Shown here: positions 9,501-24,500 of the stretch, piece after piece | Numbering within the stretch: position 1 is the stretch's first letter | Layout: each line of letters opens with the position of its first letter | NCBI GenBank assembly: GCA_964016885.1 | Contig: OZ024745.1 | Location: 111,724,001-111,788,000 of the forward strand | Direction: 5' to 3' | DNA from: Eledone cirrhosa | Taxonomy: Eukaryota | Length of the DNA: 64,000 nucleotides | Notes under the pieces: model-generated | The model's input: the letters and a program-made list of their open reading frames with translations, nothing else | Told to the model about the DNA's origin: nothing | Database searches by the model: none | Position numbers and translations under genes: made by a program

Positions 9501-12500
9501 TCTTCCTTACTGTCGAAAGCATCAAGTAGTATGCTTTTAAATTTATTTCTGGCTGTGGGGTCCTTTAGCTTCCATATTTTTCTCCTGAGGATAGTCCTCT
9601 TCAGTTGTCTAGTACGTCTCGTCCTGACTATTAGGTCGCTAATTATCAGTATGTTGGGAGGTTCATTCTTCATGGGGGAGGGATTTAGTTTTTACAACAG
9701 ACACTCTGTCACGATAAACAATCTATTATTAAAGCCATTGAGGGAGTTAAGAACTTTGAGTAGTAAGTTAACCTAGAGTTAACAGCTTCAACACATGTTT
9801 TTAACAAAAAAGAGTCAAAAAGTTGTGTTGAAGTTGTTAACTAAAAGTTTATATATATATATTTCATCATCATCATACATCCCCTTTCCTTGCTTGCATG
9901 AGTTGGACAGGTTGTTTCACTTTGAGACCAGACATATTTCATTATTAGCATGAGTGTATTTTCCGTGACACCAGTACTAACCACTTTATAGGGGCTACTG
10001 GGTGTATTTTATCATGGCACCAATGCTAAAACATTTGTCACATTGCTAGGTAAAAACTGAAGAGGCCATTCAAACTCTATATTGTCTCCATATGACTTTG
10101 ATTGCCAAACACTGTAGCCTCCGGCCTCTCACCGTGTTTAGTTTTAGTGTCATGGTGCTTGTACTGGTGGGTGTATCTTTTGTATTTTGGCATATCACCT
10201 GTCATCTCAGTTCTGTGTCATCTGCTTTGTGAGGTTCAGTTTCTTGAGGTCATTATTCCCAACTTTGCCCTGTCTTCCTTGGTTTCCCTCTTCCACAAGT
10301 TCTATCCCCCTCAAGCGTTCAGTACTTCTTTTTTTATACAGCTCTGGTTCATCAAATAACCATACCAATACAATCATCTCTCTTGCACACTAAATTCAAT
10401 TCATCTTATATTCAACTTTTCTCTTGGCTTGTGCTCTGTCATTCACGCACACTAATATTACACACCCAGTGAAGCATGCATGCTTCATTTCTTTTTAGTC
10501 CTTGCAAATCTTTTATATTCAAAGCCCACATCTCACTGCCTGGCAACATTGCAGTTCAAACACATGTATCATATAATCTGCTCTTACACTGTTTTTACTT
10601 TGACTATAAGGGTACCCCAATCTGTCATCTGGTGGTCCCTAAGGAAACTAGGTGTTGAGGAATGGCTTGTGAGGACAGTGCAAACTTTGTACAGAGGTAC
10701 TCTCAGTAAAGTCAGGGTAGGAATGGAGTTTAGTGAGGAATTCCAGATACAAGTAGGAGTACATCAGGGTTCGGTCCTCAGCACGCTCTTGTTCATTATA
10801 GTCCTCCAAGCCATAACAGAGGAGTTTAAGATTGGCTGTCCATGGGAACTTCTCTATGCTGACGATCTGGTCCTTATAGCAGAATCAGTAGAGTAGCTAG
10901 AGAATAAATTCTGGCTATGGAAACAGCAGTTGGAAGCAAGAGGACTGAGAGTGAACCTAGCGAAGACAAAAGTGTTGATGAGTTGAAAAGAGGACAAAAC
11001 TCTAATTACGTCGGGGAAATGGCCATGTTTGATATGCAGAAAAGGAACTGGCATAAATTCTATAAAATGTACACAATGCAGATCTTGGGTATACAAGAGA
11101 TGTAGTGGGATAGCAGGCAAACTAACAGGTAGGGTGAAATACGTATGCAGTAGATGTACAGGGAAATTAGACAGTAGAAGTCGCATTGATAGACACATTT
11201 TTCAAATGCAGGAGGGTGCTATAGAAGTGGTGAATAGCTTCCGGTACCTAGGAGATCAGATTAGCATGGGAGAGGGAGGGGGTGTTCCGAGGTCATAGTA
11301 TGTAGAATGACGGGTTGGAAGAAGTTTAGGGAGCTGCTGACGAAGAAGGGTTTCTCCCTGCGTACGAAAGGCCGGTTGTATGATGCCTGTGTGAGGAGCG
11401 TGATGCTGCATGCTAGTGAGACATGGGCAGCAACTGCAGAGGATATGCGACGGCTGGAGAGAAATGAGGCAAGCATGCTCCGTTGGATGTGCAATGTCAA
11501 TGTGCGTGAACGACCCAGCATGAATGTGTTGAGAGAGAAGCTATGTCTGAGAGGGATAGAATGTAGTGTGCGAGAGAGGAGACAGGTGGTATGGACATGT
11601 GATGCGCATGGAGGATGACCGATGGGTGAAGAGGTGCCAGGAAATGCCAGTTGAAGGAAGACGTGGTAGAGGTAGACCACGAAAAACATGGGCGGAGGTG
11701 GTGAGAACAGACCTCAGATCGCTGAAGCTAACGGTGGAGATGACGAAGGACCGTTATAAGTGGAGAGATGCTGTGCTGAATAAGACCTGTCCCACCCTTG
11801 CAAGCAGGGAAAAGCGGACGTAAAATGATGATGATGATGACATAACACTTTTGATATATCCACTTCCACTACTAATTAGATCACCTTCATAGCAAAAGTT
11901 TTCAAAATTTTATTACTCTTACTCTTAACTACTACTGTGCACATGCCATTTATGAAGCCTACCCTCTCTGTTACCTTAGATGAGATCCCACTATATCTCT
12001 TGTATGTCCACAGTTTACACTGAGTAAACCATATGGAGTTCCTACCCGTTCTTTCTCTACATATTGAGCACCGCCGTTTCATTGTTGGTAGCAGGCTTTT
12101 ATCCTTTTTCCTTCTTACTAAAATTTAGTCTTCGTTTGGTTTACTTTGAGGCTCTTTGATTCTAGATTTTCTCTAGTTCTATTGTTTTGGTTATGAGAGC
12201 TAGATTATCAATGCATTTGAACTCCCAGGGACAACTTGTTTTGAGTTCCTCTTTTATAGCCTGGAAGACAAATAAACTGAGCCATCACCCTCCATCTAGT
12301 TGAGACCTTGCTCCATCCATAGCACTCATCTCTAACCCATAGTAGGATGTCTTGTTGAAGTTTCCAGGTGCTCTCTATGTTATATGTATCTAATTCCTTA
12401 TCCTCCTCCTTGTCAACTGCTTCCTTCAGTATATCTCTAAATCTTTGTTTGATGGCTCTTTAAGCATCTATATCTTTCTTCTCCAGACCATCTTAGGCTT

Positions 12501-15500: not shown

Positions 15501-18500
15501 TGCACTTTTTTGATGAGTTGTGCACCTGGGCACTGTACACAATATTTCATTATTGTTATTGTTATTATATCATGACTCATACACTGTTTATTTTCCTGAC
15601 ATTTGTACATTATTCTATGTACTATACATGCACCTTTGATGAGTTGTAGTGCACCTGAGCACTGTACACAATAATTTCATTATTATTATTATTATATAAG
15701 GTTAGGAGTGGTTTGAATTGTAAATAGGAGTCTTGATATGCTAGCTACTTGGTCAGTTTCATACAGCTATCATCTTACAGTGAATAATAACTTGGAGCAA
15801 TAGCTCAATATATTTTAATGATACTTTGTGCTCAAATTTAAATGTTATTCTTTTCAACTAGCTTCTCAGCAAACTGATTCTATGCCGAAATCTGGACCAC
15901 AAGAGGAAAAACCTCCAAATGTTACTCAAGTGCCTTGCTCATCTTTACCATCTCAGAGTTCAGTAACCAAGTCTGTCACCTCAACTGTTGCATCCCAGCC
16001 AGCACCACTTCTACCATCCCCTACACTGTCTGCTGTAAAAATACCAAAAATGTTGGCTTCTCCTCCTTCTTCTTCTTCTTCCTCTTCCTCTTCCTCATCC
16101 TCTTCTTCTTCTTCTTCCTCTTCTTCCTCTTCCTCTTCTTCTTCCTCTTCTTCGTCTTCTTCTTCAAAATCTCCAGTAACACCAGCTGTTGGATTATCTT
16201 CACTATCTAGTTCTCATTCTTCTTCCACCATTCCCTGTGCTCCATCTGGTTCTAGTTGTAAATCAAACAGGCCTTCTAATACAAATACTTTAACTCACAG
16301 TGCGTCATTGATCTCTTCAGTGAAAGAGGAAGATGATAAATATGACCCAACATCACCAACCGAAGACCTCAGTCCAGGTAAGAAATCATTTTTGATTAAC
16401 TCCATAAGATATTTTTTCTTTTGTTACCATTGTTGATGTAGTTAAAATTATATTCATATGTTTTTAGGGGGTAGAAGGCCTAAAACTTTGTCTGGTTTAG
16501 CTCCTCTACTTGCTGAGTCAACGAAGGAATCCCTACACAGTCACTCAAACTGCTCAACGTAGCAGTCAGATAACAACCTACCATCTCAAAAAAGAACACA
16601 TTGGATACTGTATCCTCCCGACCTCTTGTTTGCCAAGCTTTCTATGGCTTTCACATGCTAGGAGTACTTTAAAAGCAAAAGATAGAATAAAGAACTTTGT
16701 ATAGGGATTCATAGAGTAGAAGAGAGAGAGAGTGACAGCAAGAGTGAGAAAAATAGAAGATGAGAGCAAGAAGGAAGAGAGGGTATGAGCAATAAAATAA
16801 AATCAGAAGTAATATTGAAAGTAAAACTATTGTCACATAAAACGTATGTGTGCATGGGATATATTTATGTAACAAAACGTCTGAATTCTAAAATTTTGTT
16901 GGAAATATTTTCAAGGGAACCATAAATAGGACCAACGACTATGTAAATGTAGAAAAACAAAAATAGTGTTTCATTGTGAAATAATCACTCCAGATATTTT
17001 AGCACCATATTTACGTAGAATTTGAACTTGGTGAAAATCATCAAAATACTGAATGTAAAGCGCCCCCCCCCCCCCCCCCCCATCCTCTTTCTAAACACTT
17101 ATATTTGAGTATATACAGTAAGTTCTATTTTTAACTCTTTAGCATTTAAACCGGCCATATCCGGCCAAAATTTTCTCACCTCTTTCTGTTCAAACTGGCC
17201 ATAATCAGCCACTCATACTGATGTCATGGTATTGTTCTCAAAATAAATAATATCAAAATCTCATAGATTCGATATTATGTGAGATAAAGCCTTTACCGTG
17301 AAAATGTAATAGTAAATATAGAGTAATGTAAATGCTAAAGGGTTAATAATCAGTTTTGTTACTGACATAGTAAATAAATGAAATGATGAAATTTTCATAG
17401 TTGCTCGATTGCTAGTTCTATTATTGACAGTTTTGCTGACTTTAGAACACTTAATAATATGAGATATGTTTTAAACTAAGATTCTGTTCTTTACTTGATA
17501 TTTAATTCTTAGTAAATTGTTAACTTATTTTCTAGTAAAACTTCATCCAACTAGTGGCCAGAAGGAAAGCCTATCTCACAATACTGACAAGATTGAAAAC
17601 TGTTCTTCTATCACACCAAAAACTGAAAACCAAAATAATCAAGAAACTATATCAAGGTATGTTGATTCTCTTTAATTTCCTTTTTCATATTTGATGGGAA
17701 ACAGCATTTGGTAGAGAGGGCTCTTCAGTCATGTCAAGGAAATGACAACCTCTTTAGTGCTGGTGCCACAATAAAATGCACCCAATATACTCTCTAGTAT
17801 TATGATGATGAATATAAGCTGTCCCAGCTTATATTCATCAGTATCATTTTACGTCTGCTTTTCCCTGCTTGCAAGGGTGGGCTCTTCAGCACAGCATCTC
17901 TCCATTCGTCGTGGTCCTTCGTCATCTCTGTGAGCTTCAGCGATCTGAGGTCAGCTCTCACCACCTCCGCCCATGTTTTTCGTGGTCTTCCTCTATTGTG
18001 CCTTCCTTCCACTGGGATTTCCTGGCACTTCTTCATCCAGCGATCATCTTCCATGCGCATCACATGGCCATACCAACGCAGTCTTCTCTCCCGCACACTA
18101 CAGTTTATCCCTCTTATACGCAGTATCACTCTCAACTCATTCATGCACATTGACATTGCACATCCATCAAAGCATGCTTGCTTCATTTCTTTCCAGCCTT
18201 CGCGCATCTTACACAGGCATCATACAACCAACCTTTCGTTCATAGGGAGAAACCCTTCGTTGTCAATATTTTGGCGATTTTCACCAACTTCAAATTCTAC
18301 ATAAATATGGTGCTAACATATCTGGAGTGGTTATTTTGTAATGAAACGCTGTTTTTCTACATTTAAATCCTCATTGGTGTTATTTACGCATTCCCTTGAA
18401 AACATTTCCAACAAATTTTGAACTTTTTAATACATAAATATTCCATCACTACATGTGCATACACTCACACATACGTTTTTCTTTCAATCTTACTTCTGAT

Positions 18501-21500
18501 TTTATTGCTCTCACCTTCTCTCTCTATCTCCCTCTTCTACTCTATGAATCCCTATACAAAGTTCTCTTATTCCATCTTTTGCTTTCAAAGTACTTAACAT
18601 AATGGAAACTCATTGTGTAATGGAGTTGTGAAACAAAAACTATACTCTAAACAACTCTTAAAACTTCATAAATATATTTTATGCTCATGAGAATTTCAAA
18701 ACAACACCATTTAAACATAATGCGTTGATTAGCTGCCTCAGCTTATAAACAGGGTTTTGATTTTTGCCCATTTCTTAGACATAAAATAGTGGGATCGGCT
18801 TATATTCAAGTATATATGGTAATTCAATTGTTATTTGTTAATTGCAATGACATAGAAATATTAATATTAATAGGCATAAAACAATGTGATTAATTCAGAT
18901 ATTGTTTTGTTTTTTTATTTTATCAAAAGCTGCTGCTAGTCTCTGATCTAAGCTAATAGGAATTTAAAACTGCAAACTATGATGCTAATTTACTTTGTTA
19001 ATAAGAATTTATACAATTATTATGGATTAATTTTTATCATTTCATATTTTGTATGTTTACTCCATTAGTGTGTCCTCCCTGTCTGACTCCAAACAGACTC
19101 CAAACAAAAAAATCAAGAGTGAGGATTCAGTTTTGACAAATGTGAAAAAGGAGGAAAATCAAGAAAGAGGTATTCCCCTAGTCTATGATATATCTTTTAT
19201 TGAATAAACTTATTTTATTTATAACTTCACTCAATTTTTCAATATAATTTCTCTTTATTCATTTTAACTTATTGAATTTCAAATCTTAAATCTAGTTTTT
19301 AAGTTACTTAGTATTTTACCTTTTTTTTTTCTCATTAATTCTTTACTTGTTAGAATAACTTTTTGGTAAATGGGAAGGGTAGTAACAGTAAAGCTCTGTG
19401 ACATTAAAGATATATATATATATATATTTGCCTTCATTGTGTGTGTAGAATGTAGTTTGGATGGGTATGTTTGTCATTTGACTGTTTGGTTAATGTCACT
19501 TTGTGTGTGCATGAATAGAATTACTTTTTTGTTTGCTTTCTAACTGTTGCTATACTTGTCTTAAGTTTTTATTTTATTTAGTTTTTTTTTTTTACATGTC
19601 AGAAAACACTCATAAAAACTAAGGATTTAGACAAATATAAAAACACAAACTAAACATTGCAAATTGACAAAAAATCTACCTTTAGTCTCCTGTTTTACTA
19701 CTATTAACCCATTAGCATTTAAACCAGCCATATCCGACTAGAATTCTGTCACCTCTTTCTGTTCAAACCAGTCGTAACTGGCTGCTTATACTGACGTTAA
19801 GGTATTGTTCTCAAAATAAATAATATCAAAATCTCATAGATCTGATATTATGTGAGATAATGCCTTTTCTGTGAAAATAGAATGTGATTGCTAAAGGGTT
19901 AATCTTTTTGATTACTAAACTACCTGAAAGCACCCCTAGTTCTAGAATTCTTTAAAGTGTACAACTTAAAGTCTGTAACTTAACAAAGTTTCTTACATAA
20001 AATTATGGTGGAAAGTTAGAAATAAATATAAACACTTGAAAATAAACAGCTTTGTCTCACAGAACTAGGGGAGGTTTCAGGTGGGTTTGGTATCAAAAGG
20101 TTTAATAAACAGAAATGAAATTACATATAAATTTTAATGTCTGTAATTGAAATGATCATAGCATATTAAAGTGGAGGCGCGTGGCTTAGTGGTAAGGGTG
20201 TTGGACTTATGATCATAATGTTGTGGGTTTGATTCCTGGGCTAGGTTGCATGTTGTGTTCTTGAGCAAAACATTTCATTTCACATTGCTCAAGTATACTC
20301 AGCTGAAAATGAGTACCAGCTATAGCTGGAAGTTTAACCCTGTGATAGACTGGCGTCCTGTCCAGGGGGAGTCATGTACTCTGTCACTTCATGCCATGAA
20401 ACTGGGATAAGCCTCAGCCTAACAAGCTTTCTGGCTTAAGACAGACTTTAGACTTTAGGTAGCATATTAAAAGAAATCTATTGTTACAATAAGCAGCAAT
20501 GTAACATATAGACTATGTAAAGATGTTTTTGATAAGGAATTTTGATTCTGTTAGTCATTCTATCATTTTGTTCTGCTTGAGTAATTCCTGTATTTATTAA
20601 CATTCAATAATAGTATTGTATTCACACTTTAAACTGTTGGGTATATTTATGGAATAAAATAATCTATTAATTCAGCTTAGCTGCAATTTCATAAGCTCCA
20701 ATTATTAATATAATTAATTGCTGGATTGTGATTCTCAAAAGCCAGCTAATTATATAATACTGACATGCTAATTGTCATTTTAGTTGTTTGTATTGTTGAG
20801 ATATCTGCTGTATTCTGCAGTTGTGGGTTATGAATGTTTTCTCTCTATAGAGTAGTGTAACTGTGAAGAAATGTTTTGTTTTTTTTGTTTTTTTTTTTTG
20901 TTTTTCATTAAAAAGTCCTGTCTCAAGTGGCAGTCAGTTATAATGAAGGAAGTCATCTGGCCTGCATTGTTGCTTGCGAGTTTCCACGTTTATATATCAG
21001 TGTGTATATGTGCTTGTTGAAGTGTATGTTTGTGGTATAACAGGGCCACAAGTACCATGTAGTGGTTTGCCGTTTCTGTCACAGTGGCTAGACTTGGCTG
21101 ACGCTAGGAGGTAAAAGATACTGATAGTGATTGTAGTCTCTCCAGCAGACGACCCGCAAGGACTTGTGGACCAACTAGCTGTAATCATTGCGCAGTGTGG
21201 CCCAGAAATGGAAAAAAAAATCTTGGCTGAAAATAAAGAAAATCCTTCTTACTGGTAAGTTATTTGATATTTTAGACAGGTTGTGAAGGTGCATAGCTTA
21301 TTTGTTAGAGAATTGGATTCGCAACCTTTCAGTTGCAAGTTCAATTCCTACACCTGGTGGTGCATTATGTCCTTCAGCAAGACACTTTATTTCATGTTGC
21401 TCATTCTACTAGGAGTTGTGACTGATAGATAGTATCAGCAATGGAAACATTGTTTCCTTGGTCCGATTTCACAAGTTTAACCCCACTGGGCAAGTGAATG

Positions 21501-24500
21501 AAGTCAGATTTTGTTGATCGATTTGATCAATCAATAAAAACAGATTGAAAAGATATATATGTTCTGTTATTTCGAACAAATATGCATATATATTTGTTAC
21601 TTTTCTATTATTGAATAGAAAATAGAATTTGATTTCTCTATGTTCTCATATGCAGTAGTTACCATATACTTTTCCTCCAAATTGGGAGAGTCGTTAGAAC
21701 GTCAGATAGAATGCTTTGCAGTATTTGTTCTAACTCTTTGCACTAAGTAATTAAAATACATTAAGATCTGCATTGCTGAGTAATTTCTATAAGACAATTA
21801 GTTCCAACCTTGTTCTATTCAAAGCATATTATTCTATTTGCTTATGCTTTCTTAAAGAGTTACTCTTCTTTCATCATGGTTTGAGTGAGTAGCATTAATA
21901 ATCCCATAAGATGATCTCAATAAAGAATTTAGTCCCATAACCTACACAATTTATTGTTAAACACTTTAATTTACACATTATTAAAAAAAAAAATGAATAC
22001 ATAAATCAAGGGCAGTGCCCCAGTATGGCCTTAGCCGGATGGCTGGAACAGGTAAAAGAATATAAATAATAGCAAATGTCAGTAGATAAGGAAGAATGAT
22101 ATTCACCAGTTTTCATTGCTTTTAGCTAGGTTTAAATTTTTTCTTTGTCATAATTTTGTAATTTTTATTTTATTTTATTTCATTTTACCATAAAGGTTTC
22201 TCTATGATACTGAATGTTCGCTGCACAAAAGAATGTGGCTGAAAATTGAAGAGTTACGTTGTTTAAAAAAAGCAGAAGATGCACAGAAGGTGAATTCTGA
22301 ATTATATACTAGTGATGATGGTGAGTAAAACTGGAAGAAATTTGGATTTTTTTTTTTTTTTTTTAATAGAAAAAAGGGTAATTTAACCCTTTAGCATTTA
22401 CATTGCTTTAGATATACTATTGTATTTTCATGATAAAGGCTTTATCTCACATAATATCGAATGATCATCATCCATACTCGCTGTACCAGCACAGTCTTCT
22501 CTTTTGCCTCTTGCACACTACATTTGATTCCTTTTATACTCAGTTTCTTTTTTGGCTCCATGCTTTGCTATTCATGTATATTAACATCATACATTCATCA
22601 AAGCATGCCATCTTCATTTATCTCCACATACCCTCTACATTTACTGCCTATGTTTCACTTCCATACAACATTACACTTTGTATGCAAGCATCATACAACT
22701 GGCATTTCATTTGTAGAAAGAAAGCTTTTGTTGTCAACAGAAACAGTAGACCCCTGAACTTTTCTATCCTGTTCTTATTGCTTGAAATAACTTTCCCCAT
22801 TGCTAATTTAGTTACCTAGGTAATCATCATCATCATCATCATCATCGTTTAACGTCCATGTTCCACGCTTGCATGAGTTTGGACGGGAGTTTTCCCACTT
22901 GAGGCAAGAGTGGTTGTCTTGCTCGCATAGGACTGTCTGGCGGGTTTTCTACAGCTGGATGCCCTTCCTAACACCAACCACATTTACAAATAGATATAGA
23001 ACCTTCTTGGGATTGGAAAAGCTTTATTTCACTGAGTCTCTTACTCATCTCTTGTTCATCTCTCACATACAAAGTCTACCATTTCTGTCAGTCTGCGTAA
23101 AATCCCATGACATCTCTTGCATACCCATGTTTTACATTTTGTACATTGTATGGAGTTCCCACATATTCCTTTTCTATATATTGTGCATGACCACTTCCCT
23201 GTTTTGACTAGAATTCTGTTTTCTTTCCTACTTACTAAAAATTTGGTCTTTGCTAAGTATATTCTGAGCCCTTTGGATTCTAAGTTTTGTTTTCTCAGTA
23301 GGAATTTCTTCTCTACTTCTACTGACTCAGCTATAAAAACCAGGATGTCAGTATACTGAAGTTCCCATGGACATTCAGTCTTAGACTTCTCGGTTATAAC
23401 CTGTGGCACTATAATAAACAGAAATGGGTTGATGACTTCAGTCCTGATGAACACCCACCTGCACACTGAATTCCTCACTAAACTTATTACCAATTCTCAC
23501 TTTACTGACAGCACCTCTGTACATGGCTTGCACTGTTCTCACAAGCCATTCTATTACACTTTGTTCCCTTAAGGACCACCTAATAACCCTGTTGAAGCAA
23601 GGGTTAACTTTGTGTGCCCCATGACAGGCTTCTCCATTTTGCCCTTCTCGCTACCCCCCCCCCCCCTCCCTCCACACACACCAGCCTCTTTGCTTTCATT
23701 TCCTCCTCTATCTTTAGCCAAGTTTTTCTTGTTCTTCCCCTTCCTCTACATTAGTTCTTCTCACCCAATCACTATCCTTCCTCAACACATGACCTAGTCA
23801 TCTCATTCCCTTTATTTTCACAACATTCATCACTGGCTCTATTCCCATCATCCTCTGCAATTCATTGTTTGTCTTCCTCTCTCTCAGTAATACTCCACTC
23901 ATCCACCAAACCATTCATATTTCTGATATTCAATAATGATTAAATTATATTTTTAGGTTTATTGGAAGGTAAAGGTGGCCGTAAGAAACGTCGAAGTCGG
24001 TGGGGTCCTCATGAGGAATTCTGTCCTCTTCCATCTGACCTTCTAGATCCTAGCAGTATTCCTGCCGGCTCCAGAACCAATATAGTTCCATGTACTATTG
24101 CTGTACAGCCTTCTGCAATGACATCAACTGCAGTTCCTGTATCTCGGCCTCCTGGTAAGAAGTCTTATGTTAAACCTACATAATTTTTTGCTATGGTTTA
24201 TTTATTCATTTATTTTTGTTAGATCACTGTTTAGTTGTATGATGCTGAGTTTTATTTCCATAGGCACAGGCATGGTCATGCGGTTAAGACGTTTGTTTCA
24301 GAAGCCATGGTTTTGGAATCAGTCCCATTATCTGGTACTTTGAGCGAGTGTTTTTACTACAGCCCTATGCCAACCAATGCCTTTTGAGGCAATATGGTAT
24401 ACAGAAACTGTATAAAGCTGGTCTATATACACATATATATATATGTGTGTGTGTGTGTGTAGACTGCTTTTTTTACAGTTTGTCTACCATATTTCCTTTA

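What the first reader, a model, noticed from the sequence alone, without database searches (positions are those of the whole stretch)
20880..21148. SUGP1 SURP exon has a decoy/poison acceptor array: possible autoregulatory 3' splice-site sensor
Seen: the productive acceptors are a ladder of in-frame AGs ending at 21127, 21136, 21145 and 21148, preceded by purine-rich gaggtaaaagatactgat with a branch-like CTGAT very close and almost no pyrimidine tract. Better-looking upstream acceptors all give premature stops when joined to exon 5: cgtttctgtcacag (21084) gives V-A-R-L-G-TGA; gtataacag (21043) runs in frame into TAA at 21112; the T-rich aaaag (20915) hits TAA near 21038. Known: SUGP1 acts with SF3B1 and DHX15 in branch-site and 3' splice-site choice, and many splicing factors autoregulate via unproductive splicing and NMD. 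Inference: this intron end reads out SUGP1's own activity.
Basis: partly seen in the sequence, partly recalled or inferred. Interest (0 to 1): 0.75.

Follow-up and report, generated by a model that had tools for sequence, protein, structure and literature searches.

The report
Conserved poison splice acceptor in SUGP1
In this octopus gene for the splicing-fidelity factor SUGP1, transcripts use an alternative splice acceptor that shifts the reading frame and stops the protein early; other cephalopods share it, mammals have one at the matching intron, and it likely lets SUGP1 activity throttle SUGP1's own production.

Summary
Largely confirmed, and it extends beyond the window. The gene is octopod SUGP1. 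Octopus protein records use all four in-frame AGs (21127, 21136, 21145, 21148). The frameshifting AG at 21084 is used: a contig joins 19169 to 21085 (GT..AG), and contigs start at that AG in 5 of 7 runs laid. Two more distant cephalopod-like protein clusters carry the same junction, one ending in VARIG-stop. Bases 21000-21253 are more conserved than neighbouring coding exons. AGs 21043 and 20915 have no support, so this is one poison acceptor, not an array. Humans have frameshifting upstream acceptors before both SURP exons (-65, -58); the -65 extension is conserved in mammals and birds. In one published table the longer-exon form at that human intron is 19% in wild-type and 0.6% in SF3B1-mutant leukaemia (adjusted p 0.06), the direction feedback predicts. 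Not shown: NMD in octopus, branch points, or any response to SUGP1 itself. Octopus and vertebrate extensions differ in length and show no evident sequence match. Ten literature searches found no report of SUGP1 autoregulation.

The parts
19069..19169 (+). Coding exon 5, ending in a phase-1 donor (GT at 19170-19171)
   Evidence: Gene model; contig X22 record 1 covers it
19170..21084 (+). Intron 5 as removed in the unproductive isoform; intron-side contigs run into the SURP exon
   Evidence: Joint 19167/21083 'GT..AG (cut +2)'; intron pieces at depth 8-12 in X22 and 22 in X1 and X8
21000..21084 (+). Conserved non-coding stretch upstream of the poison acceptor, ending in a pyrimidine-rich CAG
   Evidence: 21000-21112 differs at 5/113 (X1) and 4/113 (X8) letters; single copy in the genome
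21083..21084 (+). Frameshifting (poison) acceptor AG, 52 nt upstream of the VSP acceptor
   Evidence: Direct joint in X22; exon-5-like loose end in X5; contig starts at 21083 in 5 of 7 runs
21085..21136 (+). 52-nt alternative exon extension
   Evidence: homologous readings in P0003, P0020, P0142, P0143
21098..21102 (+). CTGAC: holds the premature stop TGA (21099-21101) and is a candidate branch motif for AG 21127 (-27)
   Evidence: branch use inferred
21121..21125 (+). CTGAT candidate branch motif: -13 from AG 21136, -22 from 21145, -25 from 21148
   Evidence: branch use inferred
21126..21148 (+). Four in-frame acceptors (AGs ending 21127, 21136, 21145, 21148)
   Evidence: Isoforms ER|VIVVSP, ER|VSP, ER|ADDP, ER|DDP in Octopus records; X7 contig starts at 21135
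21137..21254 (+). SURP-domain exon core (118 nt, phase 1 to phase 2), homologous to both vertebrate SURP exons
20914..21043 (+).
   Evidence: No joint listed

Best explanation
SUGP1 intron 5 ends in two competing acceptor sets, a frameshifting AG at 21084 and four in-frame AGs, and the choice between them likely acts as a feedback switch set by SUGP1-dependent branch-site proofreading. Shown: both sets are used; the upstream one puts a stop 153 nt before the next junction with 8 junctions downstream; the junction is kept in distant cephalopod-like transcripts; amniotes have a frameshifting acceptor at the homologous intron. Inferred: the VSP acceptor depends on a strong branch motif only about 13 nt (octopus) or 15 nt (bivalves, amniotes) from the AG with a poor pyrimidine tract, the geometry favoured when SF3B1 is mutant or SUGP1 is lost. 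With ample SUGP1-DHX15 activity the spliceosome would favour the upstream, pyrimidine-rich AG or leave the intron, giving mRNA predicted to be removed by NMD or to encode a protein without SURP and G-patch; with low activity the productive AG would win and SUGP1 would rise.
For: Joint 19169 to 21085 in X22, the only joint listed; X5 loose end matches the exon 5 end. Contigs start at 21083 in 5 of 7 runs from 5 studies. P0020's N-terminus is 13/13 compatible with the shifted exon-5 frame of P0024, 0 of 2000 shuffles as good; P0142 ends NERVARIG. 21000-21253 differs at 5/254 letters in X17 against 41/283 in the next two coding exons, Fisher p 9e-8. Human -65 and -58 acceptors are listed in Xing 2025 Table S7, and -58 is NMD-sensitive. 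Elephant isoform P0099 decodes to exon end plus exactly 65 nt before the first SURP exon; macaque, whale and quail models read the same extension. Pacholewska 2024 Table S2: longer-exon PSI 0.194 in wild-type and 0.006 in SF3B1-mutant CLL at the same intron. Mutant-SF3B1 acceptors use a strong branch point 11-14 nt from the AG (Alsafadi 2016), and SUGP1 knockdown mimics them.
Against: No SUGP1 knockdown, overexpression or NMD data were seen for the octopus site or the human -65 site. The CLL result has adjusted p 0.06, is blank for cell lines and MDS, is the only SUGP1 row in that paper's 7 files, and does not name the alternative AG. In an MDS table (file cut when stored) the -65 coordinates were absent; skipping of the same exon trends the same way (inclusion 0.95 vs 0.80), but my rank test gave p 0.13. 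The published trigger of both human sites is AQR loss, which disturbs 2,407 acceptors, and the authors treat -58 as missplicing. Octopus AGs 21145/21148 have ordinary branch spacing and could bypass the sensor. The stop-containing form is the surviving assembled path in most runs, which is odd for an efficient NMD target. Octopus and vertebrate extensions differ in length (52, 65, 58), with no evident match beyond a possible branch motif. No poison junction was seen in bivalves or gastropods.
Confidence: 0.55

Rival explanations
1. The site is a conserved unproductive acceptor that limits SUGP1, but it is set by other factors (AQR, U2AF, general spliceosome load, tissue or temperature) rather than by SUGP1 activity.
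For: AQR knockdown raises human -65 from 0.084 to 0.368 and -58 from 0.017 to 0.158. Use and conservation are explained equally well.
Against: The fall in SF3B1-mutant CLL and the short branch-to-AG spacing point to the SF3B1-SUGP1 axis.
Confidence: 0.27
2. The 21084 isoform is stable and functional: it yields a 401-aa N-terminal protein, or a re-initiated C-terminal G-patch protein, or a nuclear-held RNA pool.
For: It is the assembled path in X22, and 21 of 25 contigs of protein cluster 3 carry it. Alsafadi 2021 note a well-expressed early stop allele of human SUGP1.
Against: The stop lies 153 nt before the next junction. The downstream frame is open in cluster 3 but closed by TAA 21112 here, and the human shift differs (-65), so no product is conserved. 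Human -58 is NMD-sensitive. Contig depth is no measure of expression.
Confidence: 0.1
3. Splicing noise at a weak acceptor; the conservation reflects what the in-frame AGs need, and the vertebrate sites arose independently.
For: Upstream AGs give stops almost everywhere (37 of 44). No evident sequence match between the octopus and vertebrate extensions.
Against: The same junction and stop in three divergent cephalopod-like groups; conservation reaching 85 nt upstream of the poison AG; a fixed 65-nt extension in mammals and birds.
Confidence: 0.08

Closest known systems
Autoregulatory unproductive splicing with NMD in splicing-factor genes (SR-protein poison exons; recalled, and seen as search listings)
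   Same: A conserved alternative event in a splicing-factor gene puts a stop upstream of later junctions; non-coding sequence is unusually conserved.
   Different: An alternative 3' splice site, not a cassette exon. The proposed sensor is branch-point-to-AG spacing read by a helicase cofactor, not an RNA-binding site. Feedback is untested.
Human SUGP1 intron 6 cryptic 3' splice site (-58) and the annotated -65 site (Xing et al. 2025, PMC12434867)
   Same: Frameshifting acceptor upstream of a SURP exon that begins at a phase-1 VSPP boundary; -58 gives a PTC and NMD.
   Different: Described as AQR-loss missplicing; 'conserv' and 'autoregul' have 0 occurrences in the main text; -65 appears only in a table. 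In octopus the site is used in runs with no recorded perturbation, and there are four in-frame AGs.
SF3B1-mutant / SUGP1-loss cryptic 3' splice sites (Alsafadi 2016 PMC4743009; Alsafadi 2021 PMC7790757)
   Same: Strong branch motif about 11-15 nt from an AG with a weak pyrimidine tract.
   Different: Here that geometry belongs to the productive, downstream AG, and the competitor lies 52-65 nt upstream; in the cancer events the cryptic AG lies 10-30 nt upstream of the canonical one.
Tandem (NAGNAG) acceptors
   Same: 21145/21148 (CAGCAG) differ by one residue and both appear in records.
   Different: The ladder spans 21 nt, with 9-nt steps.

Membership tests
SUGP1 gene | SURP and G-patch domains, orthologous to named SUGP1 proteins | tested here: met
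   SURP exon 100% identical to Octopus SUGP1 records with PF01805 and PF01585; 14-exon, 767-aa model
Autoregulatory AS-NMD event | Alternative splice site is used in RNA | tested here: met
   Joint in X22, loose end in X5
Autoregulatory AS-NMD event | Stop more than 50 nt upstream of a later junction | tested here: met
   153 nt, 8 downstream junctions
Autoregulatory AS-NMD event | Event and flanking sequence conserved | tested here: met
   for cephalopods; positional only for amniotes
Autoregulatory AS-NMD event | Isoform degraded by NMD | not testable with these tools
   No octopus data; published for human -58 only
Autoregulatory AS-NMD event | Use depends on the level or activity of the gene's own product | tested here: inconclusive
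   Indirect SF3B1-mutant tables: one in the predicted direction at adjusted p 0.06, one trend, blanks elsewhere
SF3B1-mutant-type acceptor | Branch point 11-14 nt from the AG, weak pyrimidine tract | tested here: inconclusive
   Motif at -13 and 7/15 pyrimidines for AG 21136; branch use unmapped; 21145/21148 do not fit
SF3B1-mutant-type acceptor | Lies 10-30 nt upstream of the canonical AG | tested here: not met
   The short-spaced AG is downstream of its competitor by 52 nt

The most novel reading that the evidence does not exclude
SUGP1 has carried, since the mollusc-vertebrate ancestor, a feedback switch at its SURP exon in which the productive acceptor is a natural 'SF3B1-mutant-type' 3' splice site. 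It would be a built-in gauge of branch-point proofreading, duplicated with the SURP exon in vertebrates, and SF3B1-mutant cancers would switch the poison form off and partly compensate by making more SUGP1.
Probability: 0.35. Interest if true: 0.85.

Novelty: new variant of a known kind. Interest (0 to 1): 0.7.

Why it matters
SUGP1 loss reproduces the missplicing of SF3B1-mutant cancers, and SUGP1 overexpression partly rescues it (review PMC11874996). A conserved poison acceptor that limits SUGP1 would explain how its level is set, give an endogenous reporter of branch-site proofreading, and offer a splice site whose blocking should raise SUGP1. It would also suggest why acceptors with very short branch-to-AG spacing are kept at all. 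The human part can be tested at once in existing RNA-seq.

Tried and rejected
No RNA holder was listed as on record; runs were judged RNA-like from their spliced contigs. No joints to 21043 or 20915, and none to the in-frame AGs in X22; contigs drop rare variants, so this does not show absence. The adjacent ends of introns 4 and 6 and the first 74 nt of intron 5 were not covered in X22; not used as evidence for selective retention. RNA structure: 21000-21160 folds no better than shuffles, z 0.56. Rfam: one hit far below its gathering score. A-to-I rescue: editing the stop cannot restore the frame, because 52 is not a multiple of 3, and X22 showed no changed letters. A U12-like donor at 19190 was considered; the observed joint uses GT at 19170. 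The intron 3 row was off by one base and was redone. Three look-ups of earlier scan findings were empty. Ten paper searches gave no report of SUGP1 autoregulation or of this event in cephalopods. Liu 2020 and Zhang 2019 are not held. The supplements of Alsafadi 2021 and of the Feng bioRxiv preprint were not seen; they may hold SUGP1-perturbation values for the -65 site. PMC12711085, PMC12999471, PMC12002318 and PMC12427521 gave nothing relevant.

Full report
Gene. The translated stretch 21115-21252 is single-copy in the window's genome and 100% identical over the aligned part to SUGP1 records of Octopus sinensis and O. bimaculoides. A 14-exon model gives 767 aa with one stop. Exon 5 is 19069-19169 with a phase-1 donor; the SURP exon core is 21137-21254.

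Observation. The pattern alone is weak, since 37 of 44 AGs within 100 nt upstream of the 13 acceptors give stops and 3 of 13 introns have a better-looking YAG. Intron 5 still stands out: AG 21136 has the fewest pyrimidines (7/15) and the most upstream AGs (9; others 0-5). AGs 21145/21148 do have a tract (10/15). The CTGAT adenosine lies at -4, -13, -22 and -25 from the four AGs; an overlooked CTGAC (21098-21102) lies at -27 from 21127 and contains the premature stop.

In-frame AGs. Records of O. sinensis and O. bimaculoides use all four and O. vulgaris three; Argonauta uses the ADDP form. These are annotation models. In run X7 the contig starts at 21135, as expected for a branch at AG 21136.

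The poison AG is used. Of 24 listed runs I laid 7, all as contigs and none on record as RNA. In X22, which may come from the genome's own project, a contig of depth 27.8 joins 19169 to 21085 with GT..AG ends, the only joint listed. In X5 the 14 loose letters before 21083 match the exon 5 end. Contigs start at 21083 in X22, X1, X8, X4 and X5 (5 of 7 runs, 5 studies), which marks an assembly branch at this AG. X7 starts at 21135 and X17 runs through from 21000. Intron-side contigs overlap the exon in X22, X1 and X8. Depths do not measure expression, and rare junctions are dropped.

Conservation in cephalopods. In X17, 21000-21253 differs at 5 of 254 letters against 41 of 283 in the next two coding exons (p 9e-8); in X1, 21000-21112 differs at 5 of 113 against 42 of 283 (p 0.003). 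Two unnamed protein clusters, 78% and 71% identical to Octopus SUGP1 over residues 350-727, lie between Argonauta (88%) and bivalves (62% or less), so I infer they are other cephalopods. In the first, 4 of 7 members (21 of 25 contigs) begin in a shifted frame and read through the extension into the SURP domain, 2 start just before VSP, and 1 has the in-frame junction. The shifted N-terminus is compatible with the in-frame exon end at 13 of 13 codons for P0020 (0 of 2000 shuffles) and 11 of 13 for the other three (1 of 2000). In the second cluster, 2 of 6 members are in-frame, while P0142 ends NERVARIG and P0143, on a contig of equal length, begins in the extension.

Other molluscs. One of 15 listed oyster members (of 144) and two bivalve gene models read DTDRLLL or TDRLLL before VSPP. 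That allows a branch-like motif 15 nt from the AG, inferred from amino acids only. No poison junction was seen in bivalves or gastropods.

Vertebrates. Xing 2025 (PMC12434867; I read section 9, passages and table rows) reports a 58-nt cryptic acceptor in human SUGP1 intron 6, with a PTC, raised by emetine and by AQR knockdown, not induced by SF3B1 mutation. Table S7 also lists an annotated acceptor 65 nt upstream in another intron, PSI 0.084 to 0.368 on AQR knockdown. A row in PMC11001894 places a 124-nt exon directly after that acceptor; with the next 101-nt exon this makes 225 nt, the 75 residues between the two SURP starts in a primate record. So -65 precedes the first SURP exon and -58 the second. 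Elephant isoform P0099 decodes as the exon end in a shifted frame (6 of 6 codons; 0 of 5000 random peptides) plus exactly 65 nt. Macaque, whale and quail models read a similar extension ending TDSLLK, again allowing a branch motif at -15. The intron position and phase match octopus; the extension lengths differ and I saw no sequence match beyond that motif, so common ancestry is not established.

Direction of regulation. Mutant-SF3B1 acceptors have a strong branch point 11-14 nt from a weak AG (PMC4743009, passages), and SUGP1 knockdown induces the same sites (PMC7790757, passages). AG 21136 fits this geometry, which predicts less poison splicing when SUGP1 function falls. In PMC11610591 Table S2 (one row, header, and methods passages), the same human intron shows longer-exon PSI 0.194 in wild-type and 0.006 in SF3B1-mutant CLL, p 2e-4, adjusted 0.06; cell lines and MDS are blank and the alternative AG is not named. 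In PMC11001894 (rows only) inclusion of that exon averages 0.95 in 21 mutant and 0.80 in 6 wild-type samples, p 0.13 by my test, and the -65 coordinates were not found in a cut file. This is suggestive, not proof.

Mechanism. Shown: competing acceptors, a stop in NMD-permissive position, conservation in cephalopods, a positional counterpart in amniotes. Inferred: branch points, NMD in octopus, dependence on SUGP1-DHX15. I put feedback at 0.55, control by other factors at 0.27, a stable functional isoform at 0.10 and noise at 0.08. The prominence of the stop-containing form in assemblies and the ordinary geometry of 21145/21148 remain unexplained.

Novelty. Unproductive splicing of splicing-factor genes is a known kind (recalled; listings). 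Ten searches and term searches for 'autoregul' in PMC12434867, PMC7790757, the Feng preprint, PMC13701588, PMC11874996 and a G-patch family preprint found no SUGP1 autoregulation. Two key papers are not held and some supplements were not seen. Verdict: a real, conserved poison acceptor with a plausible, readily testable feedback role; interest 0.7.

Noticed in passing
window 19244-21112: Intron 5 is covered by contigs at depth 8-12 in X22, and intron-side contigs reach the SURP exon in X1, X8 and X17; intron retention may be a second unproductive outcome.
   Followed up: partly
window 16062-16165 (exon 3): A long serine run encoded by TCT/TCC repeats, absent from the Octopus SUGP1 records.
   Followed up: no
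human SUGP1, hg19 chr19:19414533-19414656: Frameshifting skipping of the 124-nt first SURP exon is listed as altered in SF3B1-mutant MDS, with more inclusion in mutants.
   Followed up: partly
window 21137-21148: AGs 21145 and 21148 remove the VSP residues that begin the SURP exon in nearly all animals aligned; the effect on the domain is unknown.
   Followed up: no
window 10456-11823, 17800-18300, 23056-23650: Retroelement-like (reverse transcriptase) fragments and other high-copy repeats in SUGP1 introns; label from the look of the translations, not from a family search.
   Followed up: no
P0017, P0018, P0144: An O. bimaculoides model with an extra 28-aa segment, and two Logan proteins that end by reading into other introns.
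   Followed up: no
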